A stretch of 64,000 nt of DNA, taken from the IMG/VR virus record IMGVR_UViG_2910649936_000002, positions 2,713-66,712 of that record; one strand, given 5' to 3'. Source of the DNA: a virus. Taxonomy: Duplodnaviria; Heunggongvirae; Uroviricota; Caudoviricetes. Made by a program: the position numbers and the translations under genes. The notes under the pieces were generated by a model. That model worked only from the letters and a program-made list of their open reading frames with translations. It ran no database searches and had not been told where the DNA came from. This document shows, piece after piece, positions 47,939 through 63,121 of this stretch (its first letter is position 1; each line of letters starts with the position of its first letter).

Positions 47939-47941
47939 AAA

Positions 47942-48764: not shown

Positions 48765-48780
48765 AAGTCCTGTTCCTTCC

Positions 48781-49708: not shown

Positions 49709-49875
49709 TTCCTGCTTATCTCCTTTATCACATTCATTCTCATTATCGACTCTAACACTACTTTGCTACTATATACCTGTTTGCACCCACAATTTTTACA
49801 TGATCGCTTTTCCCATCTTTATGCGTCTGGAAAGAGTATCTAAATCCGCAATTCGGGCAAATGTATTTCCGCATG

Positions 49876-50385
49876 TTACTCTGCACCTCCTGATAATTCT
49901 GTATTGTCGAAAATGTTGCCGACACATTCCAATCCATACAAATTTATGTTATCCTCACAAAGCAATTCATCCTCACATCTGATTTTCTTTCTTGTCTTTT
50001 TAGCATATCTGAGCGGGACAAAAACAAATGCACCGTCCACAAACACAACTTTCCATAATTTCCAATCCCTCTCATCCTCAGAGGCTTTACTCATTACAAT
50101 GCCATTCTCCCAAATCCGCTTACCGTTCTTGTCAGTCAGCCCCGTGTACTGGCAGAGGGTTTCGGGGTCAATTTCATATCTTGACATTCCACCATCAGAC
50201 ATCCAAGTAATAATACAATCAACTTCTTTTTCTTCTATTATGCACAATGGTCTCCTTATTTGTTGCCATTTGCAATAATATCCCTCTACCCACCATTCCT
50301 CTTTCGGCAACTCCCGCCAATTCTTACGCTTTGTTTTGAATAAGATTTCTCTGCTCAAATTCTTCATCTCCTTGCTCCTCGTCAA
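49876..50385 (-). CDS. Hypothetical protein
   Basis: 169-aa ORF in the GC-richer island. Confidence 0.35.
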   Translation of the reverse strand: MTRSKEMKNLSREILFKTKRKNWRELPKEEWWVEGYYCKWQQIRRPLCIIEEKEVDCIITWMSDGGMSRYEIDPETLCQYTGLTDKNGKRIWENGIVMSKASEDERDWKLWKVVFVDGAFVFVPLRYAKKTRKKIRCEDELLCEDNINLYGLECVGNIFDNTELSGGAE

Positions 50386-50539
50386 ACATACTTTTTACTC
50401 TGTCCATAGTTTTATAACACTCTTGCGTACCCTCAAAATTCGCAAAGCTATGCAGAATAGGCAATTCTATATGTTTTTTATTTCTTTCACACATAAGATA
50501 CTCACAATTTCTACAGCAATATGTTTTATCTTCACTCAA
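50324..50539 (-). CDS. Hypothetical Cys-rich protein
   Basis: CCRNCEYLMCERN. Confidence 0.25.
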   Translation of the reverse strand: MSEDKTYCCRNCEYLMCERNKKHIELPILHSFANFEGTQECYKTMDRVKSMFDEEQGDEEFEQRNLIQNKA

Positions 50540-50783
50540 ATTTCATTCCCTCCAATTTCTCGATCTGCTTTTTCAGACTGGCAATTTTATTTCGGCACAT
50601 TTCTTCGGCTTTCTTGATTGCGGATTGCTTGTCAAAAAATACTTCCTCTTTTTTTGGATAAAAAATACCAAATTCATCATTATTCCAAAAGGCAAATATT
50701 TTTTCTTTATCTTGCGTTTGAGTATCGGATTCAGCTTCAATAATCCCATCTGTCAGCGCATATTTAGTTATCCAAACTTTCAT
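50532..50783 (-). CDS. Hypothetical protein
   Basis: 83-aa ORF. Confidence 0.3.
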   Translation of the reverse strand: MKVWITKYALTDGIIEAESDTQTQDKEKIFAFWNNDEFGIFYPKKEEVFFDKQSAIKKAEEMCRNKIASLKKQIEKLEGMKFE

Positions 50784-51323
50784 TTATTTTTTCTCCATTT
50801 CTTTCAACTTCGCTTCGGCTTCTTCGTGGGTAAGGAATACGGTTTTGCCGATACAATCTTCGTTAAATATTTCTCCTGTATCATTGATTCCTTCGATAAG
50901 ACTCGTATGAAAAAATATACAATTACACGTTGATACCTCTATGAAAACAACTCTATATTCTGAAATAAAATTTCGTGTTGGTTTGTAGAGAATATCTCCT
51001 ACACAGCATAAAAACTCCAACAGTCTCCCCTCTTTATCCGCTTCCTTCCACCGTTCCCACTTGTCTACATCTTCGTCGGTCAGAAGTCTCGCCTTTTGCG
51101 GATTGCCAATCTCCACCTCTGGATGCTCTATGAGATGTTTTGCGACAGTTTCAAGAAGTCCGTCACATTCGCCGTACACTTTTTTAAGCTGTTCTTCCAA
51201 ATCTTCATAATGTGCCAGTTTGTTTATAGCCTCCCAATCTTGTGTATAATTCGTATAATCCTTTTTGGATTTTGTTTTTATCCAACAGGAAGTTTTTCTT
51301 TCTGTTAATCTATCCATCCTCAT
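50784..51323 (-). CDS. Hypothetical protein
   Basis: 179-aa ORF. Confidence 0.35.
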   Translation of the reverse strand: MRMDRLTERKTSCWIKTKSKKDYTNYTQDWEAINKLAHYEDLEEQLKKVYGECDGLLETVAKHLIEHPEVEIGNPQKARLLTDEDVDKWERWKEADKEGRLLEFLCCVGDILYKPTRNFISEYRVVFIEVSTCNCIFFHTSLIEGINDTGEIFNEDCIGKTVFLTHEEAEAKLKEMEKK

Positions 51324-51538
51324 TCCTCCGGCATTTCATAATATTCACTCTCGCAACATACCGCTTCTGCCATCACTTTACAGGCGCGTTCTAAGTCCTT
51401 ATATTTTCCAAGTATATGTTTCTTCCTTCTGTCTTTTACATTTTGACATTTAAGTACACACATATTCATTTCAATGTTATATGCCTCATATACATTTCCG
51501 TCTTGAGCTTTAATTTTCATTTTTATCTCCTTCTTCAA
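51320..51538 (-). CDS. Hypothetical protein
   Basis: 72-aa ORF. Confidence 0.3.
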   Translation of the reverse strand: MKKEIKMKIKAQDGNVYEAYNIEMNMCVLKCQNVKDRRKKHILGKYKDLERACKVMAEAVCCESEYYEMPEE

Positions 51539-51743
51539 TTTTAGGAATGAGTATATGCTTCATAAAAACCGGAACTGTCAAAGCTATTATTGACAATAAC
51601 CCCATTGCCACGCTTGCGTTTTTGATAGCCACAGCGCCTATAAAAGTTATTAGTGGAGTATATATACTCATAGAAATTTTAAGTACAACAACTGTTTTCT
51701 TTACAGCACGCTTTCCGCTGTCTGAATAAAAAATCATTTTCAC
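51510..51743 (-). CDS. Small membrane protein
   Basis: Two TM helices. Confidence 0.3.
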   Translation of the reverse strand: MKMIFYSDSGKRAVKKTVVVLKISMSIYTPLITFIGAVAIKNASVAMGLLSIIALTVPVFMKHILIPKIEEGDKNEN

Positions 51744-51775
51744 TCCTTCTCCAGAATTTCATCAACGCAGGCGTT

Positions 51776-52024
51776 TCAACCAATTTTCCCTGCTTTATCA
51801 ATAGCTTGTCTTGCTCTCGTACTCATAAACATTCCGTCTAGCGCCTCCGGCCCTCTGTAATCCTTTCTTTGCGGTATTGGCTTTATCGGACACCAATCTG
51901 GCTTTGCATTATAAATCGTTCTCTGTTTCTCCTCACAAAACAAGTTATCTCCTTTGATTGACGCCCTCCTGCACTCAGCGCATATTACAGGTATATCATC
52001 TACCACAACAGTTCCTTTTGCCAT
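51776..52024 (-). CDS. Hypothetical Cys-rich protein
   Basis: CAECRRAS...C...C. Confidence 0.3.
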   Translation of the reverse strand: MAKGTVVVDDIPVICAECRRASIKGDNLFCEEKQRTIYNAKPDWCPIKPIPQRKDYRGPEALDGMFMSTRARQAIDKAGKIG

Positions 52025-52263
52025 TAGTCCGCCTCCTCGCTTTCATACACTTCACTTGCAATCCCCTTATTATTCATCGCAAAAATGTACGCCGATAATT
52101 TTGCTTCTATTTGGCATAACTCAACAAACTTGTGCGGGTCTTTGTTCTCAAAATCGTTCCTCATTTCGCCAAGTCTTTCACATGCAATCATATTTAAAAT
52201 ATTTAATTCATTTTTTGAAAACGGAAAACTCCCGCTTTCGCTGTCATAAGACATCATATTCAT
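52024..52263 (-). CDS. Hypothetical protein
   Basis: 79-aa ORF. Confidence 0.3.
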   Translation of the reverse strand: MNMMSYDSESGSFPFSKNELNILNMIACERLGEMRNDFENKDPHKFVELCQIEAKLSAYIFAMNNKGIASEVYESEEAD

Positions 52264-52586
52264 TTCTCACTTTCTGCCGGGCTTTTCAGGTATTTCAAAA
52301 ATCTCTCTTTACCAAATCCGTAAGTGCATATACCAGCTATATATTCCGCCAGTTCCTCATCCGTCATGCTCCTGATTCTGTCGGCGTTGGTCTGATTTTT
52401 CTTTTTATTTAACATTCTGTTTATCCTCCCCACTACTTCCTGTGTTGAACACTTCCATATCTTACTCAACCGCTTAGTCGAATCGGTATATGTAGTCAAT
52501 GCCATGCAAGCGTGTTCATGCGGTTCTGCGTTTGTCCAAGTTCTGCACATTCCGTCTTTTCTAAGCCATATTATCATCAATTTCAT
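52260..52586 (-). CDS. Hypothetical protein
   Basis: 108-aa ORF. Confidence 0.3.
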   Translation of the reverse strand: MKLMIIWLRKDGMCRTWTNAEPHEHACMALTTYTDSTKRLSKIWKCSTQEVVGRINRMLNKKKNQTNADRIRSMTDEELAEYIAGICTYGFGKERFLKYLKSPAESEK

Positions 52587-52589
52587 TAT

Positions 52590-53306
52590 CTATTCCTCCG
52601 GTTTCTCGCACTGCTCAAACTCTATTACCCATACCCACGGATTTGCGTTCCAACCATAGAGCTGCAAGTCTTTCTTTTTGATGGTGGAGTCCCATATATC
52701 TTGAAGAGCAATAATGTGAGCAAGTCTAATGTATTCTTCTGTTTCATAAGGCATTTGCCGTATATAGCTATCAATACACTTCTTTTCAACGCCCTCTTTT
52801 TCAACATCTTTGTTCGTTATATCCTGCAACTGTTCCACTCTCACATCCGTAACTTTCAGCCAGATACGGGCGGCTTCTTTTGGCATGTAGATTGATGGAC
52901 GCCAGACCATTCCAATATCCGAACCGGGTGCATCTTCGTCTGCCTTGTAAAAATAATGGCTTAACGCTTCAATATAACTTCCATGTCCATCACTTTTGTA
53001 AACAGGTTCAAACCAAACCTCGCTACTGTCTGAAATATCCGAACACTCAATATATCCGTAATTCCACGTTTCACGCACATACAAAATATCTCCCGGCTTG
53101 TATGGACACGCACATACAAAATTGTGTGCTGCCCCTTTAACTGTTGAAGGCAAGTCCGTTCCATAAGCAAAACCTTTCCAACTAAATCCGTCTTGTACGC
53201 TGTATATAGGCTGAGGTTTAATCACTCGCCTTATAACCGACTTTCTCCCGTCCAAACTCGCCCGAACCATGTCGGTGTTAAATAATATCGACTTTATTCT
53301 GTTCAT
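52590..53306 (-). CDS. Hypothetical protein with possible ASCH/PUA-like N-terminus
   Basis: N-terminal FNTDMVRASLDGRKSVIRRVIKP resembles the ASCH beta-barrel start (f...mv.ail.GkKt.TrR). This is a weak call. Confidence 0.3.
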   Translation of the reverse strand: MNRIKSILFNTDMVRASLDGRKSVIRRVIKPQPIYSVQDGFSWKGFAYGTDLPSTVKGAAHNFVCACPYKPGDILYVRETWNYGYIECSDISDSSEVWFEPVYKSDGHGSYIEALSHYFYKADEDAPGSDIGMVWRPSIYMPKEAARIWLKVTDVRVEQLQDITNKDVEKEGVEKKCIDSYIRQMPYETEEYIRLAHIIALQDIWDSTIKKKDLQLYGWNANPWVWVIEFEQCEKPEE

Positions 53307-53309
53307 GTT

Positions 53310-53543
53310 TTATTCCTCCGCTGCGCATATCTGCACTATAGTTTCGCTCTTTATATGCTCAAATATTGCGAATGTAGCAGTTGGGTTCATTTTCCTGTAT
53401 TGAGCGTAACACTCCTCTGCCTTTTCAATTTCTTCATATGTTCCTCGTGGAAACCATATCCCCCTCACCTTGTTCCAATATGCAACCACATATTCTATGT
53501 TTGTATTCCCTGAATTGTCTTTGAAGCCGTCAAGTAGATTCAT
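53310..53543 (-). CDS. Hypothetical protein
   Basis: 77-aa ORF. Confidence 0.3.
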   Translation of the reverse strand: MNLLDGFKDNSGNTNIEYVVAYWNKVRGIWFPRGTYEEIEKAEECYAQYRKMNPTATFAIFEHIKSETIVQICAAEE

Positions 53544-53546
53544 CTT

Positions 53547-53948
53547 TTACCCCTCCTTAAAGAACTCTTCCCGTTCCCTCAGACGTTTTCCGTCCGGGCT
53601 TTCCTGTGATTTCATCTCATCTTCCTCACTCCAATCTATCTCCTGTCCGCATTTCGGACAATGTTCATAATCGTCATAATCTACTTCGTATCTTTCACTA
53701 CAGCACGGACAAATCCATGTGTCATATACTAATTCGCCTTTATTATCGTAACCGTCTCCTTCATAGTCAGGCTTCTTCGCTTTCTGCTTCTCCACCGCCT
53801 CCCTGCACTCTTCCGCCGTTCCAATTCCCCTGTACTGCTGGATTTCCTTTAAAGCTTTGATTGCCATGCCAAATGCAACTATGTCTTGCGCTTGTATATA
53901 ATACTTTGTACGATTCTCTAATATTTCAATCGCTTCTTTCTCTGTCAT
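53547..53948 (-). CDS. Hypothetical Zn-ribbon protein (start moved to the internal Met)
   Basis: WICPCCSERYEVDYDDYEHCPKCG. Its start MTEKE forms an ATGA overlap with the stop of the Lar-like gene and has a GGAGAGGA RBS. The longer MESTGRRGRCRG extension in the ORF table is probably an artifact. Confidence 0.4.
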   Translation of the reverse strand: MTEKEAIEILENRTKYYIQAQDIVAFGMAIKALKEIQQYRGIGTAEECREAVEKQKAKKPDYEGDGYDNKGELVYDTWICPCCSERYEVDYDDYEHCPKCGQEIDWSEEDEMKSQESPDGKRLREREEFFKEG

Positions 53949-54196
53949 TCCTCTGCACCGTCCTCTCCTGCCCGTTGATTCCAATCGTCCACTGCAAATT
54001 TAATTTCTTTTAAAACAATGTCAAACGCTTCATTGTCTAATTCCACCCTGTGATGTTTTACCAACCCGCAATTAGAGTTATTACATTTAATTCGCAAGTC
54101 ATATATTGCAGTCGTACAATTACTTCCAATATGCTTAAATTCGGAGTATACATCTGTTCCGCATATCGGACACGGCTTTAATTTAATTTCTCCCAT
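53945..54196 (-). CDS. Lar-family-like small Zn-ribbon protein (paralog 2)
   Basis: MGEIKLKPCPICGTD....CNNSNCG....AVDDWNQRAGEDGAEE. Confidence 0.5.
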   Translation of the reverse strand: MGEIKLKPCPICGTDVYSEFKHIGSNCTTAIYDLRIKCNNSNCGLVKHHRVELDNEAFDIVLKEIKFAVDDWNQRAGEDGAEE

Positions 54197-54226
54197 GCTT
54201 AAACACCGCCTTTCTCGTTATATATA

Positions 54227-54430
54227 TCATGCTCCCAACTCTTTAAATGATGTAGGGTCATATAATGTAGTTCCATCGTTCGATTCGTTCCACCAATGAC
54301 CGCCGCCCGAAATTGTATAATCGTCCGTTCCAACCATTCCGTATTTGTTTTTTACTACATAATTTCCACTTTTTTCTGGCTTTCCAGATATAAAATTCTT
54401 GTATGTCATTCTTCTTTCTTTATCAGTCAT
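54227..54430 (-). CDS. Hypothetical protein (start moved to the internal Met MTDKE)
   Basis: Has the same ATGA-coupled junction as 53948. Confidence 0.35.
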   Translation of the reverse strand: MTDKERRMTYKNFISGKPEKSGNYVVKNKYGMVGTDDYTISGGGHWWNESNDGTTLYDPTSFKELGA

Positions 54431-54699
54431 TCCTCTGCACCGTCCTCTCCTGCTCGTTTGTTCCACGCTTCTTTACAAGCCTTTTGGCATTCAGCGCATT
54501 TTTTATACGATTTATCTAACCACACGTTAAACAGCGCACATTTCGGTACGTTCCGTTCCATTTGTGCTTTTCTGCCATGTGTCCTATTTCTATGCGTATG
54601 ATATTGGCACACATCCTTCCCCCAGAAATCTCCTCCATATGTGCAAGTGTCAATTTCAGGAGATACTAAATGCTCAACTTTTATTTTGATTTCTCCCAT
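54427..54699 (-). CDS. Lar-family-like small protein (paralog 3)
   Basis: MGEIKIK... CAECQKACKEAWNKRAGEDGAEE. Its C-terminus is identical to paralog 2. Confidence 0.45.
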   Translation of the reverse strand: MGEIKIKVEHLVSPEIDTCTYGGDFWGKDVCQYHTHRNRTHGRKAQMERNVPKCALFNVWLDKSYKKCAECQKACKEAWNKRAGEDGAEE

Positions 54700-54701
54700 G
54701 C

Positions 54702-54953
54702 TTAAATCCCTCCCTTCTCGACAATTTCTATTGCATATTCTATAGCTTCTACCCCACAGGTATCATCACATTCATTACATGCTTGACCTGCTTCTTCCAA
54801 TTCCTCAATCACCTTTTCCTTGTCAAAAGCGACTGACTTGGCAATATCCTCCAACGCCTTATAAATTCTGTCAGCCTGTTGTCCTTCGACACACGCTTCA
54901 TCATGCAGAATATTCCATAATCTTTCATCATCAATATTAATCAGCTTGTCCAT
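54702..54953 (-). CDS. Hypothetical acidic Cys-containing protein
   Basis: 83-aa ORF. Confidence 0.3.
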   Translation of the reverse strand: MDKLINIDDERLWNILHDEACVEGQQADRIYKALEDIAKSVAFDKEKVIEELEEAGQACNECDDTCGVEAIEYAIEIVEKGGI

Positions 54954-55028
54954 CTTCGCTCCTTTCAGTCGCTTGTTCCAGCTTTCGGCAAGGGACTTAC
55001 GCCCCTCGCCTGGTTTACTGACTATGAT

Positions 55029-55817
55029 TTACTTTGCATCAGGAAATACAAAAATTGAAGATGGAAGGATAAAAAACGGACGCACGCCCCCGCCGTCATA
55101 CCCACAACCGTTGCAGCTCACGCGGCCACCGTAGTCGACATACTGGACAAAAGAAGAATCATAGACTGCCGGCGTTGAATTTGGTGTTACAAGCCACCAC
55201 CAAGAATTACCAACAAAAATATTTTCTCTGCATTCCCTATATAAATTAATGTCTGGAATTCCTAAAATATCTTCGTTTAAAATGCCGTAATCTTTTAACC
55301 CATCAAGAGATGTTAAATCAATTGATACAGGAACCAGATTTTCTCCATATTTTTCTTCAAGTGCTTTAGCAAAATCGCTATTAACAACCCTTTCCCTAAT
55401 ACTTGATTCAGCATAATTAGTTGTGCAACCAAACTCGGAATAAAACAATGGATAGCATGTATGAAGATATGTATTACCATTCTCTGTTTTAAGTTTCGTA
55501 CATGGTTGTCCACATATCTCAACAATATTTTGTTTTACCCATCTTTTTGCAGTGTTACGAAAATCTGATTCATATTTCTCTTTTTTCTCTTCATACCATT
55601 CCGGAATAATATCTTGGTCAACTATGTATTTCCATTTTGTAATATCAGAAAGAAGATTATTTTCATGTGGAATCAACTCTACCTTTACCCAATTTGCCTT
55701 TACAATAAAGCTGTCTCTCACATTTAATTTTCTTAGTAACGCTGAATGACTCTGATTATACATCGGCGCAAGATACACTTCGTTTTTAAAGATAATACCT
55801 GATAAAAAATTACACAT
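55029..55817 (-). CDS. Hypothetical protein, paralog A, with a conserved C-terminal WWWL...GCGYDGGGVRPFFIL module (DUF1566/Lcl-C-like?)
   Basis: The C-terminal 60 aa are nearly identical to 62444..63121. The last 89 nt are identical at the DNA level. Confidence 0.5.
   Translation of the reverse strand: MCNFLSGIIFKNEVYLAPMYNQSHSALLRKLNVRDSFIVKANWVKVELIPHENNLLSDITKWKYIVDQDIIPEWYEEKKEKYESDFRNTAKRWVKQNIVEICGQPCTKLKTENGNTYLHTCYPLFYSEFGCTTNYAESSIRERVVNSDFAKALEEKYGENLVPVSIDLTSLDGLKDYGILNEDILGIPDINLYRECRENIFVGNSWWWLVTPNSTPAVYDSSFVQYVDYGGRVSCNGCGYDGGGVRPFFILPSSIFVFPDAK
55035..55123. repeat. Direct repeat copy 1 (89 bp, 100% identical to 62450..62538)
   Basis: tgcatcaggaaatacaaaaattgaagatggaaggataaaaaacggacgcacgcccccgccgtcatacccacaaccgttgcagctcacgc. 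GC-rich. Covers the last 27 codons plus about 10 nt of the 3' UTR of paralog A. Confidence 0.9.
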
Positions 55818-55964
55818 AATTATTATTCTCCTTTTCTTAAATCCAAAATTTTTTAATTACAAGTTCATTTTTTAGCCACTAAATACCAATTGCTTCTGTT
55901 AGATTTACATATAGCATAATATTTCTCATACTTTACCCGCCTTTATCCCTCAACAAAATCATTT

Positions 55965-56861
55965 TCATACAGCTATCTTCTCCTTTTGTCGCATATAGTT
56001 TTCTACATCTTGTTTCATAATTCTAAAATTTTGTCTCTGGTCATTCATGTAGATATGATTTCTCTTAAAGTAGTCTACAATCCAATCATCTAAATCCATA
56101 TCATTTTCTGTAGCATATGTAACTATTGCTAATAATGATTTTCTATTTTTTTCATCCATTAATTTAGAATTATTGTCTACGTTAATCGTTAGGTCATCCA
56201 ATAGTTCTTCGCAAAATTCAATCTGGTCATCTCGTAAATCATAATCTAATACTTCCCGTACGAAATCATAATCAGATATTAATTCTTCTTCAGGTTCATC
56301 ATCTTTATGAAAGAACTCTTTCATTAATGTTTTTAATATGGATATTTTTGTTGTAACAACGATTTTATCTTTTGTACCACGACGTTTTTCATTTTCTGCA
56401 TTTAATTCTGTGTCCTCAAATTTCAATCCATCTACAGGCTTATTAATTAACTCTTCTTTAAATGCATCCAGAAACTCTAAGAACCTCGCATCGTCTAAGT
56501 TAAAAGTAGTAAAATAATCAAAAGTAGCGATCCATGCATATATATTTTTGCTTATAAAAATATCTTGGTATTTATTTGCGCATACCGTTTCAATACGATT
56601 CATATATTCTGATATCTTCTTAAATTCATCTTCGTACTGTTTATTGTTCAAATATTTATACATATTCCTTGCAGTGCTTGTCCAATTGTCTAAATGGAAT
56701 GTTGCCATTACTGATTCACATACAATTCTTTCATACGTTCCGTTTTTTGGTTCAGATGATGATGGGTGTATAGTATCAAGGAAAAATTTTGAATTGGCAA
56801 TATTTTTAACTTCTCTTGCATGTATGTCAAGATATGTCAAGGCTTTCTGATTTGTATTCAT
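55965..56861 (-). CDS. Hypothetical protein
   Basis: 298-aa ORF downstream of the DUF262-like gene. Confidence 0.35.
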   Translation of the reverse strand: MNTNQKALTYLDIHAREVKNIANSKFFLDTIHPSSSEPKNGTYERIVCESVMATFHLDNWTSTARNMYKYLNNKQYEDEFKKISEYMNRIETVCANKYQDIFISKNIYAWIATFDYFTTFNLDDARFLEFLDAFKEELINKPVDGLKFEDTELNAENEKRRGTKDKIVVTTKISILKTLMKEFFHKDDEPEEELISDYDFVREVLDYDLRDDQIEFCEELLDDLTINVDNNSKLMDEKNRKSLLAIVTYATENDMDLDDWIVDYFKRNHIYMNDQRQNFRIMKQDVENYMRQKEKIAV

Positions 56862-56879
56862 ACCTTTATGATTGTTATA

Positions 56880-57395
56880 TCATCTAACTAATTTGCTAAT
56901 CTCCTTCATTGCACAATTAGGATGAATGACAATACGTACTTGAAACATATCGAATCGCTTTTTTAATTCATTTGGAAGCTCGTCAAAAGTTTTTCCACTT
57001 AGCTTGAAGATCTTCCTTTCCCATTCGATACTTCCATCTTCCTGTTTCATAACCTTTCCATGTTCATCACGCTTCTTTTCTTGATATTCAATTTCTGCAT
57101 CTTCCATCGTTCTCGAAAATTTATGATTTCCGTAACGAATAATACGCATAGCCGCTGTTCGTTGCATGCCATCCACAATATATTGCTGTACAATACCATC
57201 TGTATATGGGATTTCTCCAAGAACAATTGGAGGAAGATACCCACCATTTAGTAACGTTACGGCAATTCCATCTACAAATGAATTATCTGCACAAAATTTA
57301 CGTTGTACATCCTGATTCTCACTAATGTCTCCACCTTTAACATCAGCTAAATATGCACTCACAGGTACATTAATCTCTTTTACCTTTATATCCAT
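56880..57395 (-). CDS. DUF262/ParB-like nuclease-domain protein
   Basis: LPPIVLGEIPYTDGIVQQYIVDGMQRTAAM matches the DUF262 core (iP.i.l....y.viDGqQR) of the GmrSD/DndB/ParB superfamily. Confidence 0.5.
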   Translation of the reverse strand: MDIKVKEINVPVSAYLADVKGGDISENQDVQRKFCADNSFVDGIAVTLLNGGYLPPIVLGEIPYTDGIVQQYIVDGMQRTAAMRIIRYGNHKFSRTMEDAEIEYQEKKRDEHGKVMKQEDGSIEWERKIFKLSGKTFDELPNELKKRFDMFQVRIVIHPNCAMKEISKLVR

Positions 57396-57418
57396 TGTTT
57401 TCTTCCTCCTACTATTTC

Positions 57419-57982
57419 TTACATTAATATTCGTATATTTTCATACGATTTGATGACTTGCAAACAATTCACATATTCTTTTCTTGTTATTTTAAGTTGA
57501 TTTAATATCTCATTAGGTTTATATTGATATACCAGCAATCTTAATACTGCCTGTTGTGTAGTAGACAATTTTTCCATATAAGCTGCGATATTGTCACTAT
57601 ACATTTGCTCAAATATATCGTTTTCTAATGTTTTATTATCTTGTATCATCTCTACTAAACTAATATCTTTACCTTCCGTCACACAAATTGTTTGATCAAT
57701 TGAGCATGCAATTCTATCCGCTTTTCTTTTCTGCCTATTTCTTCTTGTTATTTCTGTCATAATCTTTTTATATAGACATGAATATAAAAAAGCTTCGAAT
57801 TTTTGTTCTCTATCATATCTTTTTAGTACATCAACAAATACTTCATTGGCCAATGAATAAAAATCATCCATATCTTTTTGACTAATCCCACCGAATTTCT
57901 TTAATATTTGATCTACTAACTTATGTAATTTTTTCGCATTGTTTTTGTAATAAATCTCTGTATAATCCATATTATCCTCCAC
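57419..57982 (-). CDS. Sigma-70-family-like transcription factor
   Basis: A region-2-like segment (FYSLANEVFVDVLKRYDREQKFEAFLYSCL) and a C-terminal HTH (QQAVLRLLVYQYKPNEILNQLKITRKEY). Confidence 0.45.
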   Translation of the reverse strand: MEDNMDYTEIYYKNNAKKLHKLVDQILKKFGGISQKDMDDFYSLANEVFVDVLKRYDREQKFEAFLYSCLYKKIMTEITRRNRQKRKADRIACSIDQTICVTEGKDISLVEMIQDNKTLENDIFEQMYSDNIAAYMEKLSTTQQAVLRLLVYQYKPNEILNQLKITRKEYVNCLQVIKSYENIRILM

Positions 57983-57988
57983 ATTGAC

Positions 57989-58594
57989 CTAAAGTAAAAT
58001 CTCATCCACATCCCGAATATTAAATGTTCTTTCCTCTAAACGTTGTACTGTTTTCTGCAATTTATTTTCAGCGATACCAGCCAAGTTTAAATCTAACAAT
58101 GATTGCACTACACTTAATTCATCTTTAATACTTCTTCTCCTTTTCATAATCTCTCTGACTGTTTTATACGACATATAACCAGCACATGCATTTTTATTTT
58201 TATCTAGTTCAATATCATGTAAACAATTACTGAGTTGTTTATCTACATTAGATAAATTCGCAAGCAATTGATTTTTCCGCTTGTTTGCGTCAATTGCTAA
58301 CATATTTAATCCTTCTACTTTTTTCATCCATTCTGTAACAGATTGGGGAACCTGATAGTCTTTACAAACAATTATTTTATTTTCGTTCTTTGCTTTTCTT
58401 TCTGCCGAAGAAATTTCAGGTATCGGAATAACCGTGAAATGAAATCGTTTTAACGTTTTTGGCAAATTATCAACTAAGTTTTTTGCTTTTGAATATTCAA
58501 ATCTTTGCATTTGATTTTTTGGACATGTCTCCACTTTCCCATCTTTGAGTTTGATATACACATCTTTTTGTTGATTACATATAGCATAATCCAT
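57989..58594 (-). CDS. Hypothetical protein
   Basis: 201-aa ORF. Confidence 0.35.
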   Translation of the reverse strand: MDYAICNQQKDVYIKLKDGKVETCPKNQMQRFEYSKAKNLVDNLPKTLKRFHFTVIPIPEISSAERKAKNENKIIVCKDYQVPQSVTEWMKKVEGLNMLAIDANKRKNQLLANLSNVDKQLSNCLHDIELDKNKNACAGYMSYKTVREIMKRRRSIKDELSVVQSLLDLNLAGIAENKLQKTVQRLEERTFNIRDVDEILL

Positions 58595-58637
58595 AAAATA
58601 TCCCTTCTTTCATACATAATTTCGTAAAAATGGTCGC

Positions 58638-58709
58638 AAAATCCCAATTGAGCTAATCGGATTCGAACCGATAAATACATGAATCAAAGTCATGTGCCTT
58701 ACCTTTTGG
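58638..58709 (-). tRNA. tRNA-Gln (anticodon UUG)
   Basis: Minus-strand sequence TGAGCTA TT GCC..GGC A CATGA CTTTGAT TCATG TATTT ATCGG TTCGAAT CCGAT TAGCTCA A. It has a 7-bp acceptor stem, a 5-bp anticodon stem with a 7-nt loop (anticodon TTG), and a T-arm GGTTCGAATCC. CCA is not encoded. Confidence 0.7.
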
Positions 58710-58772
58710 CAATAGCTCATTACATATTTCTATATTTAATTGTTAAAAAATTTGAAAATTTTGCAGAAACGC

Positions 58773-58801
58773 TTGAACAATATCTCGAAAATGTGTAATA
58801 T
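58773..58801 (+). promoter_or_regulatory. Strong sigma-A-like promoter on the plus strand (TTGAAC -17 nt- TAATAT), pointing antisense into the MazF-like gene
   Basis: TTGAAC at 58773-58778, a 17-nt spacer, TAATAT at 58796-58801. No plus-strand coding gene with an RBS follows it. Confidence 0.4.
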
Positions 58802-58963
58802 ATAATATGCATAGTTGTTTCTGCAATTATGTTGTGTTTGAGAAGACATATTTTTAGGTGCGGCAACACCAGTGACAAAATACGTCTTCTCTTTTTTTAT
58901 GTTTACATGTTATCACAAACAAATGTTCTAGTCAATCCAATTCAAAACGTATGTTCTATTTTA

Positions 58964-59323
58964 TTATCTAATCTGAAAATTTGCATCATATACTTTCTTG
59001 ATATTTTTTTGGTTAGAATAATCTGATATATATCCTATATGCTTTAGTATTCTCTTTTTAGAAATCTGTCGTAAACATTCACCAAGAACTATTGAGTCCC
59101 TATCCAATTTGTTATCATTATCTTTTCTAATTAGAGTATGCGTAGGTTGATTCGGATTCTTATTTTTTGTACTTAATGGCATAACTAACGTTGTTGGACT
59201 ATATAAATTTCCAATATTATTTTGTATAATAACCGCTGGGCGTTTACCACCCTGTTCAGAATCGATTACATCTTTCCCAAAATCTACGATTACAACATCA
59301 TATTGCTTTAAGGTTTGTTTCAC
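58964..59323 (-). CDS. mazF: MazF/PemK/EndoA-family endoribonuclease toxin
   Basis: VIVDFGKDVIDSEQGGKRPAVIIQNNIGNLYSPTTLVMPLST...PTHTLI...RDSIVLGECLRQISKKRL is highly similar in pattern to B. subtilis EndoA/NdoA ([32 protein letters not shown]...PTHVEI...RDSVILLEQIRTIDKQRL). Probable GTG start after AAAGGAGG. Confidence 0.8.
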   Translation of the reverse strand: MKQTLKQYDVVIVDFGKDVIDSEQGGKRPAVIIQNNIGNLYSPTTLVMPLSTKNKNPNQPTHTLIRKDNDNKLDRDSIVLGECLRQISKKRILKHIGYISDYSNQKNIKKVYDANFQIR

Positions 59324-59353
59324 TAATCGAATCCTCCTTTCATCTATTTCTAT

Positions 59354-59410
59354 ACAAAAAAAGAATGATGAGGGGACAATGCTCCAGCATCATTCTTACA
59401 TTATTTTTTA
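59354..59410 (-). terminator. Rho-independent terminator hairpin (probably bidirectional)
   Basis: Stem AAGAATGATG / CATCATTCTT (59361-59370 / 59388-59397) with a 17-nt loop. It is followed by U7 on the minus transcript (plus A7 at 59354-59360) and by a T6 run on the plus strand (about 59404-59409). Confidence 0.6.
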
Positions 59411-59677
59411 AATATCTCGTTTTGGCGCACGATTTGTTCTTTTACCATTGAATACATCAATATAACCATAATCATTCGAAACATGAACCGGCTCTCTTTT
59501 TTGACTATCCCATGCTTCTTGTTCTGTTTTAAATAGTCTGGATTCCGGCAATCTAATTGCTCCACACGATCCTACCAATTGTATCACATAGAATTTTCCT
59601 TGTCTTGCGGAAACACGTGCCTTTCTTACATTCATGTTGTTTTCAAGAATATAGCATATATCATCTTTCTTAAACAT
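59408..59677 (-). CDS. Hypothetical protein
   Basis: 89-aa ORF upstream of the terminator. It does not look like an RHH or AbrB antitoxin. Confidence 0.35.
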   Translation of the reverse strand: MFKKDDICYILENNMNVRKARVSARQGKFYVIQLVGSCGAIRLPESRLFKTEQEAWDSQKREPVHVSNDYGYIDVFNGKRTNRAPKRDI

Positions 59678-59688
59678 TATATCATCTC

Positions 59689-59919
59689 CTATTCATCAAA
59701 TTCCAATGTTATATAGTTAAACTTCTTGTCTTTCCATTTCCGAACAACCTTACCGAATTTAGATTTAAGTCTTTCAGCATTTTTATAATTGCCACTTGCT
59801 CCATATGAATTTTCTAAAAGATACCAATAGCTTGCCGGCAATTTATATTCAGTAACCTCCATAATATCTCCTATTTCACAGCAATCTATATTTTCAGTAG
59901 TAAAATCCATTTCGCGCAT
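59689..59919 (-). CDS. Hypothetical protein
   Basis: 76-aa ORF. Confidence 0.3.
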   Translation of the reverse strand: MREMDFTTENIDCCEIGDIMEVTEYKLPASYWYLLENSYGASGNYKNAERLKSKFGKVVRKWKDKKFNYITLEFDE

Positions 59920-59972
59920 TAATTTAGTCTCTCCTTCTATATATTATAGAAGATATTATACCATATACTGTA

Positions 59973-60959
59973 TTAGATTTCACTCAAATCTATCCCATAG
60001 CTTCCTTGAATATACCACTTTTTCGTTGTATCTACACTAGATTGTCCCATCTGTTGCTGTGCAAAGACTGCACCAAAATTTTTTGACATTGTAGAAGCAT
60101 ACCAGTGTCGCAACATATGTGGCGTAATCCCATTGCCATATGTTTTAAATATATCCTTGATAGTTCCTTCCGTTACACGTCCACCACGCCTGGTAATATA
60201 TAATGCATTTTTCGACTCTTCATTGATATATGGAATCTTATTCCTTATTTCTAGCCAACGCTCAATTGCTTTAACGGACTTTCCAGTTAGTAACACACGT
60301 CTTTTTTCACACTCACGATTCTTCCCCTTACCTAATATCAGAATGAATGCACGTTTCTCATTATCATCACCATTTAAAAAAACATCATCTAAGTCAAGAT
60401 TAGCAAGTTCAGTTTCCCTAATTCCAGTTCCCTTTAATAAATTAAAGATAGATAAATTTCGCTCTCTTACCATTTCATCTTTTTTCTTAGACATTTTTTC
60501 TTCAATTAAATTTAATTCTGCAACATCAGGCACAACCGCAATATTAATATTTCCAGAAATCCCTTTGTATCCAGATTTTGATACAACATTTGTTATAACT
60601 GGACATTTATTTGTATCTACTAAATATCCCCAAAAACTTTGCAAACGATTCTTATATACTTCCACTGATGTAGGACTGTATCCTCTTTTCTCTTCTAAAT
60701 CCGTAAGATATTGTTTAATATCTTCAGCTTCTACTTCCATCATGTCTCCTGGTTCAATATCTGAAATGTTCAATTTTTTAATAATTTTACGAGCAATACA
60801 ATCATTTAAAAAATCCCTAATCGTAGTATAATAATCACGTTTTGATTTAGTGCTATTTAATCGAATAAAAAAGCGTGTAATAAATTCCGGTATCTTAGCT
60901 TCTTCAAATTTCCTGTTTAACTGCTCATTTTCTTTTTTTCTAACTTCATCTTTATACAT
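59973..60959 (-). CDS. Tyrosine site-specific recombinase/integrase (XerD-like)
   Basis: Catalytic residues in context: GTGIRETEL (Arg), GKGKNRE (Lys), HMLRHWYAS (His-x-x-Arg), KKWYIQGSY (Tyr). Confidence 0.8.
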   Translation of the reverse strand: MYKDEVRKKENEQLNRKFEEAKIPEFITRFFIRLNSTKSKRDYYTTIRDFLNDCIARKIIKKLNISDIEPGDMMEVEAEDIKQYLTDLEEKRGYSPTSVEVYKNRLQSFWGYLVDTNKCPVITNVVSKSGYKGISGNINIAVVPDVAELNLIEEKMSKKKDEMVRERNLSIFNLLKGTGIRETELANLDLDDVFLNGDDNEKRAFILILGKGKNRECEKRRVLLTGKSVKAIERWLEIRNKIPYINEESKNALYITRRGGRVTEGTIKDIFKTYGNGITPHMLRHWYASTMSKNFGAVFAQQQMGQSSVDTTKKWYIQGSYGIDLSEI

Positions 60960-61085
60960 ATTGCCACCTCCTGTTTATCCCTTTCTCTATTTTGCATATT
61001 GCGCAAAGAAAAAAGCACTGGCTTTCCAATGCTTTTCAAATCATAATTTTAGATATGTAATAATAAGATACTTTGTTTATTTGTT

Positions 61086-61307
61086 TTACAAATAATGTCC
61101 TTCAATATGATAATCTCCAGCGCTTAAAGACAACGACGTATTATCTTTTACCCATTCATTTAATTCTTCGGGAGTTGGAAAAGATATCGCCACATTCAAG
61201 TCAACACAAATCGGCAATCCATCTTCTGGCACTTCAGCATCTTCAACCAAACTTCCTAATCGTTCTTTATCATTTAAAACAATAAAATAATGCCATGATC
61301 TCTCCAT
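61086..61307 (-). CDS. Hypothetical protein
   Basis: 73-aa ORF. Confidence 0.3.
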   Translation of the reverse strand: MERSWHYFIVLNDKERLGSLVEDAEVPEDGLPICVDLNVAISFPTPEELNEWVKDNTSLSLSAGDYHIEGHYL

Positions 61308-61329
61308 AATGTCACCTCATTACATAAAA

Positions 61330-61524
61330 CTATTCTTTTAACTGTAAATAATATTCTATCTGTGCAATCTCTGTTTTAATCTTCTTCATTTCCAATAGAG
61401 AATTAATCGCATTATCTTCATAATTCATAGAATCCATATCTTTCAGATCGACTTTAAAATACTCTTGTAGCTTTTTAAGTCGCTCCCGCTTTATTTCCAA
61501 TTCGTATTCCATTATTTCACGCAT
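61330..61524 (-). CDS. Hypothetical coiled-coil protein
   Basis: 64-aa ORF, charged helical. Confidence 0.3.
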   Translation of the reverse strand: MREIMEYELEIKRERLKKLQEYFKVDLKDMDSMNYEDNAINSLLEMKKIKTEIAQIEYYLQLKE

Positions 61525-61558
61525 TTATATTCTCACCTCTCTACATGAAAGTTAAATT

Positions 61559-62239
61559 TCATCTTATTCTTCTTATACAAAATTCACTCATAAATTCAAT
61601 AATTGCACCATCTTCTCCACTCTCATAAAAAGAAATAAGCAATCCCTTAAATTCTTCTAACTTGTCAATTGGTATTTGAAAAATGCCAATATTATTTTCA
61701 ATCAATACTTTGTTCGCCATAAGTTGTGCTACGCGCTTATTTCCATCAATAAACATTTGTGTTCTGGCAATATAACAAAAGTATTTCAGTGCCTTTAATT
61801 CAATATCTTCTATCTGTTCTATTTTATTTACACACTCTATGATAACTCCTGTTTGTGGTATTTCAGGTTCCCATGATGTTCCACCTATCTGTACGGGTAT
61901 AGTTCTTATTTCTCCAGCATAGCTAAAAAGCAATTCACCAACAATTTTATCATACTCTCTTAATAGTGCGATACAATTCTTATACTCAATATTATCTAAT
62001 AAAAATTGCCATGCTCGTTTCATATTAATAACAAATAAAACTTCTTCTGTTTTTGTTGTTGTCGGTGCGTTAGCTATAATTGCCTCTGTTTTTGGAAATG
62101 TCGTGCCTAATCCCTCTAAATTAGCGCTTTTCCAAATGCTATCTATTAATAGCCTTTTTGCCATTTCAATTGCTGTATCACGCATATTAACATCTCCTTT
62201 AATGATTTTCGTATATATTATACTACGCAAATAGTACAT
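61559..62239 (-). CDS. Fic/Doc-family protein with a non-canonical motif (His replaced by Gln)
   Basis: YIARTQMFIDGNKRVAQLMANKV fits HxFx(D/E)GN(G/K)R except for Q at the catalytic His position. Confidence 0.55.
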   Translation of the reverse strand: MYYLRSIIYTKIIKGDVNMRDTAIEMAKRLLIDSIWKSANLEGLGTTFPKTEAIIANAPTTTKTEEVLFVINMKRAWQFLLDNIEYKNCIALLREYDKIVGELLFSYAGEIRTIPVQIGGTSWEPEIPQTGVIIECVNKIEQIEDIELKALKYFCYIARTQMFIDGNKRVAQLMANKVLIENNIGIFQIPIDKLEEFKGLLISFYESGEDGAIIEFMSEFCIRRIR

Positions 62240-62289
62240 GTGCCAATTTCATTTTTTCTTTATAAGATTAATTTTATTCATATTTTTTC

Positions 62290-62379
62290 TTACTTTAAAT
62301 TCTGCTGATCGATCCAATCCTTAATGATTTGCAATAAATACCATCCAACAACTGATACAATAATTCCTGGTAATAACAT
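62290..62379 (-). CDS. Possible 29-aa hydrophobic peptide upstream of the fic-like gene
   Basis: GGAGGAAATATCT ATG. Hand translation MLLPGIIVSVVGWYLLQIIKDWIDQQNLK. Confidence 0.25.
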   Translation of the reverse strand: MLLPGIIVSVVGWYLLQIIKDWIDQQNLK

Positions 62380-62443
62380 AGATATTTCCTCCTTCATATT
62401 ATAATCTATTTCCACATTCCATGTTTATTGAATTGCCTACGCT

Positions 62444-63121
62444 CTACTCTGCATCAGGAAATACAAAAATTGAAGATGGAAGGATAAAAAACGGACGCAC
62501 GCCCCCGCCGTCATACCCACAACCGTTGCAGCTCACGCCGCCATCGGAACAAACAAACCGGACGTAAGAAGAATCATTTCTTGAAGGTGTTTGATTGGGT
62601 GTTGCAAGCCACCACCAAGAATCTACTTTTCCGATAATCTTACTATATTTGCGGTACTGATCGAACGTCATCAGGCTTACTTTGTCAACACATGTTCCAT
62701 AATCATCATATCCATCCATAGATAAAAGGTCTACCTCATGTCCAATAATACTTTCTGTTCCAAATTTATTTTCAAGTTCTTTAAAATATTCTCCATTAAA
62801 ATATGCACGGATATAGCTATTTCCCCAATTATTTGTTAAGCCGAATTCCCATTTCTTCTCTAATAACTTTTTTGTTACTACTGCCGTTGTATCATTTATA
62901 AAATGCTCACATACTATATACTCAACTCCATCACTATCTCTAAACACATTACCAGGTTTTAACGTAAATAGTCTAACTAATTTTCCACCTTCATCAATTC
63001 TGATCTGCATACTTCCATTTATTTTATTAACGATTACTATAATATCTTTCCCTGTATTATTAATTACACTTACATTATTTTTCATAATTTGAATCTCCTC
63101 TTTTATATTTTTATTATTCAC
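62444..63121 (-). CDS. Hypothetical protein, paralog B of 55029..55817, sharing the C-terminal GCGYDGGGVRPFFIL module
   Basis: C-terminus KVDSWWWLATPNQTPSRNDSSYVRFVCSDGGVSCNGCGYDGGGVRPFFILPSSIFVFPDAE. Confidence 0.5.
   Translation of the reverse strand: MNNKNIKEEIQIMKNNVSVINNTGKDIIVIVNKINGSMQIRIDEGGKLVRLFTLKPGNVFRDSDGVEYIVCEHFINDTTAVVTKKLLEKKWEFGLTNNWGNSYIRAYFNGEYFKELENKFGTESIIGHEVDLLSMDGYDDYGTCVDKVSLMTFDQYRKYSKIIGKVDSWWWLATPNQTPSRNDSSYVRFVCSDGGVSCNGCGYDGGGVRPFFILPSSIFVFPDAE
62450..62538. repeat. Direct repeat copy 2 (89 bp)
   Basis: Identical to copy 1. The flanking sequence diverges immediately on the coding side. Confidence 0.9.

What the first reader, a model, noticed from the sequence alone, without database searches (positions are those of the whole stretch)
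55035..62538. Two 89-bp perfectly identical direct repeats (3' ends of paralogous genes) bracket a 7.3-kb accessory segment carrying integrase, tRNA-Gln, an orphan MazF toxin, a Fic/Doc-like protein, a sigma-like factor and a DUF262 protein
Paralogs A (55029..55817) and B (62444..63121) diverge strongly except for their C-terminal module. The last 89 nt, including about 10 nt past the stop, are 100% identical and GC-rich. Divergence is immediate on the coding side. The interval between them holds classic mobile or moron cargo: a tyrosine integrase, a tRNA, a toxin, Fic, a sigma factor and a DUF262 nuclease-superfamily protein. Such repeats can arise from gene conversion or as att-like junctions of an inserted element. 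They are also substrates for RecA-mediated deletion of the whole segment. The left repeat coincides with the edge of the GC-rich island.
Basis: partly seen in the sequence, partly recalled or inferred. Interest (0 to 1): 0.65.

Follow-up and report, generated by a model that had tools for sequence, protein, structure and literature searches.

The report
Frozen DGR variable regions, homogenised by recombination
The two identical 89-base repeats are the ends of two sister receptor-type genes that a hypermutation system (a diversity-generating retroelement) used to rewrite; in this prophage the core of that system is missing where relatives have it, and one gene end has been copied onto the other, so this is not the boundary of a mobile element.

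Summary
Positions 55035-55123 and 62450-62538 are 100% identical and occur only twice in the window.

The att-junction/mobile-cargo reading is not supported. Genes A and B are DUF6273 proteins with a C-type-lectin-like fold. In related 40-220-kb phages these are the proximal and remote targets of a diversity-generating retroelement (DGR). Five relatives carry A-type (or, in L002, B-like) target -> Avd -> TR -> RT, with VR/TR mismatches almost only at TR adenines. In one relative a single TR fits both paralogs (15/15 and 19/19 mismatches at adenines).

Much of the interval is conserved backbone in these relatives: an integrase slot, MazF, a tRNA slot, a sigma-like gene and GmrSD.

The window has no RT, Avd or TR. 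A 6.4-kb island sits where they should be.

The 89-nt tract is the 3' 49 nt of the variable region plus a 40-nt tail that a DGR never writes. Identity at normally hypervariable positions and in the tail therefore points to a recent gene-conversion event, probably A to B, with no retrohoming since. Relatives show A/B perfect runs of only 11-23 nt.

This is ordinary biology with a modest twist.

The parts
55035..55123 (-). Perfect repeat, copy 1, inside gene A. It comprises the 3' 49 nt of the variable region (55075-55123) plus a 40-nt post-VR tail (55035-55074) encoding FFILPSSIFVFPDA.
62450..62538 (-). Perfect repeat, copy 2, inside gene B. It comprises the 3' 49 nt of the variable region (62490-62538) plus a 40-nt post-VR tail (62450-62489).
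55029..55817 (-). Gene A: an A-type DUF6273 protein of 262 aa (identical to NCBI H8S37_04250). It is the positional orthologue of the proximal DGR target in L003, L005, L088 and L089.
62444..63121 (-). Gene B: a B-type DUF6273 protein. The longest ORF is 225 aa; NCBI H8S37_04315 is 213 aa, which places the start at about 63085. It is the counterpart of the remote DGR target in L004, L006 and L089.
   Evidence: AlphaFold2 model pLDDT 90.9; C-type-lectin/TvpA-like fold
55075..55163 (-). VR_A: DGR-type variable region of 89 nt, delimited by analogy with the TR/VR homology of relatives. It runs from the Tyr codon of the Y-D-S-S stretch to CCGTT. Coding-strand composition is A 12% and GC 57%.
62490..62578 (-). 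VR_B: DGR-type variable region of 89 nt. Its 5' 40 nt differ from VR_A at 12 positions, including 3 C/T wobble differences that adenine mutagenesis of one TR cannot produce.
55019..55207 (-). Extended A/B similarity (189 nt, 86%) around copy 1. The partner stretch is 62434-62622.
48547..54957 (-). Higher-GC island of about 6.4 kb. It occupies the slot that holds Avd-TR-RT plus a few small genes in L003 and L089. It encodes small phage ORFs and two Lar-like proteins, with no RT, Avd or TR.
55965..57395 (-). GmrSD-like gene split into two ORFs (N part 56880-57395, C part 55965-56861). It is collinear with the fused 468-486-aa genes of relatives.
57419..58594 (-). Sigma-like protein (57419-57982) and the conserved 201-aa protein (57989-58594). 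Both are backbone genes shared with L002, L003, L005 and L087-L089.
58648..58719 (-). tRNA-Gln(ttg). A tRNA occupies this same slot in all six relatives examined (Gln or Met).
58964..59323 (-). MazF/PemK toxin, collinear with the PemK genes of relatives. The divergent HTH gene found next to it in L002, L003 and L005 is absent here.
59973..60959 (-). Tyrosine integrase. An integrase occupies the corresponding region in L003, L005, L088 and L089, but of varying type (36% identity to L088's; no hit to L003's at 1e-5).
61559..62239 (-). Fic-domain protein in the variable part of the interval. No counterpart was seen in the relatives examined.

Best explanation
Genes A and B are two paralogous DUF6273 (C-type-lectin-like) ligand-binding proteins. 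In this phage lineage they are the proximal and remote targets of one diversity-generating retroelement (DGR). Each carries an 89-nt variable region (VR) ending in the GC-rich motif GGCGTGCGTCCGTT, followed by a short constant tail.

In this prophage the DGR core (Avd, template repeat, reverse transcriptase), which normally lies directly downstream of A, is absent. A 6.4-kb island occupies its place. The two VRs are therefore most likely frozen.

The perfect 89-nt repeat is a short non-reciprocal recombination (gene-conversion) tract. It copied the 3' half of one VR plus the adjacent tail onto the other gene, probably from A to B. The pre-existing VR homology would have nucleated the exchange, and host RecA or the phage's own Sak4-like recombinase could have carried it out.

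Shown here:
- the anatomy of the tract;
- DGR-target identity, through relatives and the predicted fold;
- absence of the DGR core from the window;
- conservation of much of the interval as backbone.

Inferred:
- the conversion mechanism and its direction;
- loss of DGR activity in the whole genome.
For: 1. Family hypervariability. In both subfamilies, near-identical homologs differ only in about 25 aa before GVRPFF, with residues typical of NNC codons.

2. Verified DGRs next to the orthologous gene in five relatives. VR/TR mismatches at TR adenines: L002 14/15; L003 all; L005 15/15; L089 12/12 and L088 15/18. RVT_1 genes and Avd-like genes are adjacent.

3. One TR serves both paralogs in ERR10101745_120: VR_A 15/15 and VR_B 19/19 mismatches at adenines, with B about 12.6 kb upstream of A.

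5. Synteny. MazF, the tRNA slot, p201, the sigma-like gene, GmrSD and A are collinear with L002, L003, L005 and L087-L089. An integrase region and a B-type gene lie upstream in L003/L004, L005/L006 and L089.

6. DGR core missing. There is no RT or Avd by tblastn or by profile HMM on the six-frame translation. There is no third VR-like copy, and neither the VR-end motif nor the TR-spacer motif occurs elsewhere. Homology with relatives breaks at about 54958-55015 and resumes at 48546.

7. The tract is not a retrohoming product. TR/VR homology ends at CCGTT in all relatives, so the 40-nt tail is never TR-templated. TRs carry 11-13 adenines in the last 49 nt, and the two active VRs of L005/L006 differ at 9 of 49 positions there.

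8. The tract is lineage-specific. The longest perfect A/B run is 11-23 nt in three relatives, and their tails are 22-29/40 identical.

9. Donor direction. The ILPS tail occurs in 11 of 120 A-type homologs (counting window gene A itself) but in no B-type homolog other than window B. The A-type tails of L005 and L089 match the window tail over about 26 nt.
Against: - Only 0.9 kb upstream of B is visible, and the rest of the 1.96-Mb source contig could not be fetched. An RT/TR elsewhere in the genome is therefore not excluded.
- The RT search listed only the best 120 of 3,350 hits, so its negative result is weak.
- The donor direction rests on a 4-residue motif. The IFV part of the tail looks more B-like, so the tail may itself be mosaic.
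- No read data were available to exclude consensus homogenisation by the assembler.
- Gene conversion is inferred from the pattern, not observed.
Confidence: 0.8

Rival explanations
1. The repeats are attL/attR-like junctions of a 7.4-kb integrative element. The integrase in the interval would have inserted it into a DUF6273 gene and could excise it.
For: A tyrosine integrase lies between two perfect direct repeats. The cargo looks accessory: MazF, Fic and GmrSD_N.
Against: - The interval's gene order (integrase region, MazF, tRNA slot, p201, sigma-like, GmrSD), with B upstream and A downstream, recurs in related phages. Spacing there is 10.9-13.3 kb and there are no long A/B repeats.
- Both repeats are embedded in full-length paralogs whose similarity extends beyond the tract. 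This is unlike an att core next to a gene fragment.
- The integrase is about 1.5 kb from one repeat and about 4.9 kb from the other.
- The integrase type varies among relatives while the architecture persists.
Confidence: 0.04
2. An active two-target DGR, with its TR and RT outside the window, wrote both VRs. The identity would then simply reflect shared templating by one TR.
For: Two-target DGRs with a remote B-type target exist in this lineage. The window's VR end GGCGTGCGTCCGTT equals the TR/VR end of L088. The genome beyond the window was not seen.
Against: - Independent retrohoming randomises 11-13 adenine-templated positions in the identical 49 nt. Actively diversified A and B differ at 9 of 49 positions there in L005/L006.
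- The 40-nt tail is outside TR homology in all five relatives.
- The 5' halves of the VRs differ at C/T wobble sites that cannot derive from one TR.
- The canonical Avd-TR-RT slot downstream of A is occupied by other genes.
- No RT from the source genome is among the 120 closest RTs.
Confidence: 0.07
3. The tract is conserved because it acts as a nucleic-acid signal, for example the terminator-like GC hairpin plus T-run or a DGR target-recognition element. Selection would then maintain identity in both genes, with no recent recombination.
For: A terminator-like pattern (GGCGGGGGCGTGCGTCCGTT followed by TTTTATCC) occurs at the same place in both copies. DGR targets need an IMH-type element at the VR 3' end (established knowledge of the BPP-1 DGR).
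Against: - Only about 14-20 nt around the VR end is conserved across relatives.
- The preceding VR positions are hypervariable, and the tails differ between A and B in three relatives (22-29/40 identical).
- Identity at all 29 third codon positions is not what selection on a short motif gives.
Confidence: 0.05
4. Assembly or polishing artefact: reads from two similar VR regions were cross-recruited and the consensus was homogenised.
For: VR regions are notoriously heterogeneous in DGR-active populations. The two loci share 189 nt of similarity.
Against: - The source is an isolate genome with a 1.96-Mb contig.
- The tract (89 nt) is shorter than typical reads (general knowledge; the read length of this assembly is unknown), and it has distinct flanks.
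- Both ORFs are intact and the boundaries fall cleanly.
Confidence: 0.04

Closest known systems
Phage DGRs with DUF6273 / C-type-lectin-fold target proteins, including two-target cassettes (Tentaclin-encoding gut phages, PMC10743442; Faecalibacterium prophages Lelie, CP11, Roos and Pioen, PMC11792537)
   Same: - DUF6273 domain with the VR at its C-terminal end.
- C-type-lectin-like fold.
- Two paralogous targets per phage.
- Relatives of this window have Avd-TR-RT with adenine-specific VR/TR mismatches.
   Different: - In the window itself no RT, Avd or TR is present.
- The two targets lie 7.4 kb apart (10.9-13.3 kb in relatives) and flank a region holding an integrase, a toxin, a tRNA and GmrSD, rather than sitting in one compact cassette.
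- The two VRs share an identical 3' half plus tail.
Bordetella phage BPP-1 DGR (mtd VR, IMH, TR, avd, brt)
   Same: - VR at the 3' end of a C-type-lectin-fold receptor-binding gene.
- GC-rich element at the VR 3' end marking the limit of TR homology.
- Avd and RT downstream (seen in the relatives).
   Different: - A different protein family (DUF6273, not Mtd).
- A remote second target.
- The core is lost in this prophage.
- No function was tested here.
Treponema denticola TvpA and other multi-target bacterial DGRs with remote or orphan VRs
   Same: - Several paralogous C-type-lectin-fold targets that share VR and IMH sequence.
   Different: - Phage rather than bacterial chromosomal context.
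- Here the paralogs were partly homogenised by DNA recombination rather than diversified.
Gene conversion / concerted evolution between paralogous phage tail-fibre or surface-protein genes
   Same: A short tract of perfect identity, including synonymous sites, inside otherwise diverged paralogs in one genome and absent from orthologous pairs in relatives.
   Different: The tract covers a region that normally diverges fastest (a DGR VR). Its identity therefore also indicates that retrohoming has stopped.

Membership tests
DGR variable (target) protein | Ligand-binding scaffold of C-type-lectin type (here Pfam DUF6273) with the VR at the C-terminal end | tested here: met
DGR variable (target) protein | Hypervariability among close homologs confined to the VR, with NNC-codon-type residues | tested here: met
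   Both the B-type and the A-type homolog sets show constant flanks and a hypervariable stretch of about 25 aa before GVRPFF.
DGR variable (target) protein | A cognate TR in the same genome that differs from the VR only at TR adenines | tested here: not met
   There is no third copy and no VR-end or TR-spacer motif elsewhere in the 64-kb window. The feature is met in relatives L002, L003, L005, L088 and L089. The rest of the source genome could not be examined.
Complete DGR system | DGR-clade reverse transcriptase | tested here: not met
   tblastn with the RTs of L001 and L002, and an HMM built from the three DGR RTs of L002, L003 and L005 searched against the six-frame translation (best E 0.13), found nothing. 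No RT from the source genome is among the 120 closest RTs (weak evidence).
Complete DGR system | Accessory protein Avd next to TR and RT | tested here: not met
   The Avd HMM gave a best E of 0.4. The slot downstream of A holds unrelated small ORFs.
Complete DGR system | GC-rich IMH-type element at the VR 3' end marking the end of TR homology | tested here: met
   GGCGTGCGTCCGTT is present in both copies and is identical to the TR/VR end of L088. TR homology stops at CCGTT in all relatives.
Integrative mobile element bounded by att direct repeats | Presence/absence of the bounded segment as a unit among related genomes | tested here: not met
   The genes of the segment are collinear backbone in L002, L003, L005 and L087-L089, with A and B on either side where visible.
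Integrative mobile element bounded by att direct repeats | The repeat is a discrete duplicated core, with one copy next to a truncated target fragment and the integrase adjacent to an att site | tested here: not met
   Both copies lie in full-length paralogs with 189 nt of 86% similarity and 42% protein identity. The integrase is 1.5 kb and 4.9 kb from the repeats.
Gene-conversion tract between paralogs | A block of identity that includes synonymous sites, flanked by diverged sequence | tested here: met
   There are 0 differences in 89 nt and at 0 of 29 third positions, against 27 of 84 nt and 7 of 28 third positions in the adjacent flank.
Gene-conversion tract between paralogs | Absent from the orthologous paralog pairs of related genomes; the converted segment groups with the donor lineage | tested here: met
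   The longest perfect A/B run is 11-23 nt in three relatives. The ILPS tail is A-type-specific: 11 of 120 A-type homologs, against window B alone among 120 B-type homologs. The donor direction is only moderately supported.

The most novel reading that the evidence does not exclude
VR-to-VR copying may not be an accident. It could be a recurrent way in which these phages transfer a successful binding specificity from one DGR target to its paralog, or rescue a decaying remote target. The nearest A-type and B-type homologs (P0122 and P0002) also share near-identical long tails, which hints at recurrence. Alternatively, the 89-nt direct repeats could be used to delete the 7.4-kb integrase/toxin/defence block as a unit.
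Probability: 0.07. Interest if true: 0.5.

Novelty: new member of a known kind. Interest (0 to 1): 0.3.

Why it matters
The result replaces a "mobile element with att sites" annotation with the correct one: two DGR target genes in a prophage of Mediterraneibacter sp. NSJ-55 that has lost the DGR core, at least at its canonical locus.

Three practical lessons follow.
1. A short GC-rich, adenine-poor patch at the 3' end of a DUF6273 gene in an AT-rich phage is a recognisable DGR footprint, even when no reverse transcriptase is nearby.
2. Identity between two VRs indicates that retrohoming has not occurred since the copying event.
3. The slot downstream of the proximal target is a cassette-exchange hotspot in a large clade of 100-220-kb gut phages.

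None of this changes the current understanding of DGRs.

Tried and rejected
- **The two copies as a TR/VR pair.** Rejected: the mismatches are not adenine-specific and include synonymous C/T sites.
- **Megablast of 52-64 kb against GenBank phages.** No match.
- **Exact-protein look-ups for A, B, P0001, the integrase and MazF.** None is on record.
- **The search for related loci with A and B in IMG/VR, and with P0001 in GTDB genomes.** No confirmed relatives.
- **Exact DNA search for the GC-rich core in IMG/VR and GTDB genomes.** No match. The source genome beyond the window could therefore not be retrieved.
- **L001.** A B-type gene is followed by an RT, but no TR was detectable. That RT carries YSDD and, on inspection, lacks the SQ-type motif seen in the L002 RT, so it does not look like a DGR RT. 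It was not used as evidence.
- **Search for an NSJ-55 RT among homologs of the L089 RT.** None in the best 120 of 3,350 hits, so the result is inconclusive.
- **Rfam scan of 48-64 kb.** Only the tRNA was found.
- **Promoter scan.** At chance level.
- **RT-less DUF6273 genes in L073 and L074.** These look like ordinary, non-VR DUF6273 proteins: the VR-end motif is not found in those genes.

Full report
**1. The observation**

A perfect 89-nt direct repeat exists at 55035-55123 and 62450-62538, 7,415 bp apart. A 44-nt core probe finds only these two sites in the window even with 3 mismatches, and none in 100 shuffles. A sensitive blastn finds no third copy.

Similarity extends to 189 nt at 86% (55019-55207 and 62434-62622). 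Both copies lie at the 3' ends of minus-strand genes: A (55029-55817, 262 aa) and B (62444-63121). The two proteins are 42% identical.

A codon-by-codon map corrects three details of the finding:
- The perfect tract ends one sense codon before the stops (AAG-TAA versus GAG-TAG), so it does not run past them.
- Divergence on the coding side is gradual, not immediate.
- Only the first 49 nt of the tract are GC-rich (67%). The last 40 nt are 30% GC.

The annotation of the interval is largely right:
- tyrosine integrase at 59973-60959;
- tRNA-Gln(ttg) at 58648-58719;
- MazF at 58964-59323;
- Fic at 61559-62239;
- a weak sigma70_r2 match at 57419-57982;
- GmrSD_N at 56880-57395.

**2. What the two genes are**

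Both genes are Pfam DUF6273 and phrog_9958. The exact proteins are H8S37_04250 and H8S37_04315 of Mediterraneibacter sp. NSJ-55, on a 1.96-Mb contig. The window is therefore most likely part of a large AT-rich prophage. Its replication module includes a DnaE-like polymerase, NrdD, a ligase, RecJ and a PurZ-like enzyme.

Hundreds of homologs fall into a B-type subfamily (about 211 aa) and an A-type subfamily (252-262 aa). In both, near-identical proteins differ only in about 25 residues just before GVRPFF. The residues at those positions (G, D, C, Y, S, N, R, F) are the ones expected from mutagenised AAC codons. This is the signature of a diversity-generating retroelement (DGR) variable region (VR), and the 89-nt repeat covers exactly this stretch.

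**3. Test in relatives**

Contigs encoding homologs show the canonical cassette directly downstream of the DUF6273 gene: an Avd-like gene, a template repeat (TR) and an RVT_1 reverse transcriptase. VR/TR mismatches fall almost exclusively at TR adenines:

| Locus | Mismatches at TR adenines |
|---|---|
| L002 | 14 of 15 |
| L003 | all |
| L005 | 15 of 15 |
| L089 | 12 of 12 |
| L088 | 15 of 18 |

In phage contig ERR10101745_120 a single TR fits both paralogs. The proximal A-type VR has 15 of 15 mismatches at adenines. The B-type VR, about 12.6 kb upstream, has 19 of 19. A-type and B-type genes are therefore the proximal and remote targets of one DGR.

In two other phages (L003/L004 and L089) the remote B-type VR no longer fits the resident TR. 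Remote targets evidently drift or change partners.

An AlphaFold2 model of B (pLDDT 90.9) matches:
- many C-type lectins.

Published work already places DGR VRs at the C-terminus of DUF6273 and describes two-target phage DGRs (PMC10743442, PMC11792537).

**4. The interval is largely backbone, not a mobile insertion**

The order MazF, tRNA, p201, sigma-like, GmrSD, A in the window (59.3 to 55.0 kb, minus strand) is collinear with L002, L003, L005, L087, L088 and L089.
- A tRNA occupies the same slot in all six relatives: Gln in three and Met in three.
- An integrase lies upstream in L003, L005, L088 and L089.
- A B-type gene lies 10.9-13.3 kb upstream of A in the three genomes where the region is visible.
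- Only the 59.7-62.4 kb part (integrase type, Fic, small ORFs) varies.

This contradicts the reading of the repeats as att junctions of an inserted element.

**5. What is missing in the window**

Homology with relatives runs through gene A to about 54958-55015 and resumes at 48546. The stretch between them is the higher-GC island. It replaces the Avd-TR-RT block and encodes small phage ORFs and two Lar-like proteins.

No RT or Avd is detectable anywhere in the 64 kb by tblastn or by profile HMMs on the six-frame translation. The VR-end motif occurs only at the two VRs. The TR-spacer motif shared by five DGR-bearing loci (L002, L003, L005, L007 and L089; L007 and L089 come from one contig, and L088 carries a variant of the motif) is absent from the window.

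In IMG/VR, 73 of 80 loci anchored on the conserved 292-aa gene lack both DUF6273 and an RT upstream. That slot is therefore a variable hotspot.

The source genome outside the window could not be retrieved. The closest 120 of 3,350 RT homologs include none from it, which is only weak evidence of absence.

**6. Why the tract is identical**

By analogy with the relatives, the VRs are 55075-55163 and 62490-62578. The perfect tract equals the 3' 49 nt of the VR plus the 40-nt tail.

Retrohoming cannot explain it, for two reasons:
- TR homology stops at CCGTT in every relative, so the tail is never templated.
- TRs carry 11-13 adenines in the last 49 nt. Where A and B are both actively diversified, they differ at 9 of those 49 positions.

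The 5' VR halves of A and B differ at 12 of 40 positions, including three C/T wobble differences that one TR cannot generate. In three relatives the longest perfect A/B run is 11-23 nt and the tails are 22-29/40 identical.

The tract is therefore a recent, lineage-specific homogenisation. The most likely cause is a short gene-conversion event seeded by the shared VR/IMH homology. The window does encode a Sak4-like recombinase, but its involvement is an inference.

The ILPS tail motif is found in 11 of 120 A-type homologs and in no B-type homolog except window B. The A-type tails of L005 and L089 match the window tail. The transfer was therefore probably from A to B, with moderate confidence.

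Any later retrohoming would have rewritten the VR 3' end first. The preserved identity thus implies that no DGR activity has occurred since, which fits the loss of the core.

**7. Rivals**

- **att sites of an integrative element:** contradicted by synteny and by the extended paralogy.
- **Active DGR with a remote TR:** cannot explain the tail or the identity at hypervariable sites.
- **A selected nucleic-acid signal:** only about 14-20 nt is conserved across relatives. A terminator-like pattern at the VR end was noted.
- **Assembly artefact:** unlikely for an isolate genome, but not testable here.

**8. Verdict**

The finding is real but ordinary: two DGR target genes of a known kind, in a prophage that lacks the DGR core at its canonical locus, with a short conversion tract between their variable regions. 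The repeats could still mediate deletion of the 7.4-kb block, but nothing suggests a dedicated mechanism.

Noticed in passing
window 45847-47040 (with 47060-48538 and 43703-45111): An adenylosuccinate-synthetase homolog annotated by PHROGs as PurZ-like (phrog_1211, 1.7e-61) sits next to two metallophosphatases. The 198-aa + 292-aa + PurZ-like block is conserved in at least 80 IMG/VR contigs, many of them 100-220 kb. This may be a clade of phages with 2-aminoadenine genomes that also uses a DnaE-type polymerase (13157-16402).
   Followed up: partly
window 1706-4960: The NrdD-like ORF of 1084 aa matches NrdD profiles in two separate blocks (aa 2-398 and 761-1083). This suggests an insertion of about 360 aa, possibly an intein.
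   Followed up: no
window 39528-42086: A DNA methyltransferase ORF of 852 aa carries an internal segment (aa about 120-470) that matches NrdD/primase-like phage families. Local GC rises to about 41%. This could be an intein or a homing-endonuclease insertion.
   Followed up: no
window 55965-57395: The GmrSD-like gene is split into two ORFs (171 aa and 298 aa, separated by 18 nt). The counterparts in L002, L003 and L005 are single genes of 468-486 aa. It may be a pseudogene or a two-part variant.
   Followed up: partly
window 58648-58719; L002, L003, L005, L087-L089: A tRNA gene occupies the same slot between the MazF/PemK gene and the 201-aa gene in all six relatives. Its identity alternates between Gln(ttg) and Met(cat).
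   Followed up: partly
window 58964-59407: The MazF gene lacks the divergently transcribed HTH gene that lies next to PemK in L002, L003 and L005. Only 84 nt separate it from the upstream 89-aa ORF. The slot of the small downstream gene in relatives is taken by a 52-aa ORF and the tRNA.
   Followed up: partly
window 55075-55094 and 62490-62509: A terminator-like pattern (GC-rich imperfect hairpin GGCGGGGGCGTGCGTCCGTT followed by TTTTATCC) lies inside both ORFs at the VR 3' end. It coincides with the IMH-type motif.
   Followed up: no
window 54177-54217 and 54680-54720: A 41-nt direct repeat (85% identical) covers the start regions of two small island genes, suggesting a repeated promoter/RBS/start module.
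   Followed up: no
proteins P0122 (A-type, 73% to A) and P0002 (B-type, 67% to B): The nearest homologs of A and of B carry almost the same long tail (SSISASSDVE and SSISVSSNVE), which differs from the window's tail. If they come from one phage, A/B tail homogenisation is recurrent in this sub-lineage.
   Followed up: no
L004 10480-10600 with L003 TR 11269-11352; L089 2343-2422 with TR 14004-14089: In two related phages the remote B-type VR has many non-adenine mismatches to the resident TR, and in L089 its 3' motif is altered. Remote targets seem to become orphaned or to derive from a different TR flavour.
   Followed up: partly
L001 6573-8797: A B-type DUF6273 gene is followed by a 418-aa RT that does not look like a DGR RT (YSDD motif), with no detectable TR. 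It sits near DndB and MrpR-like genes on a 153-kb contig.
   Followed up: no
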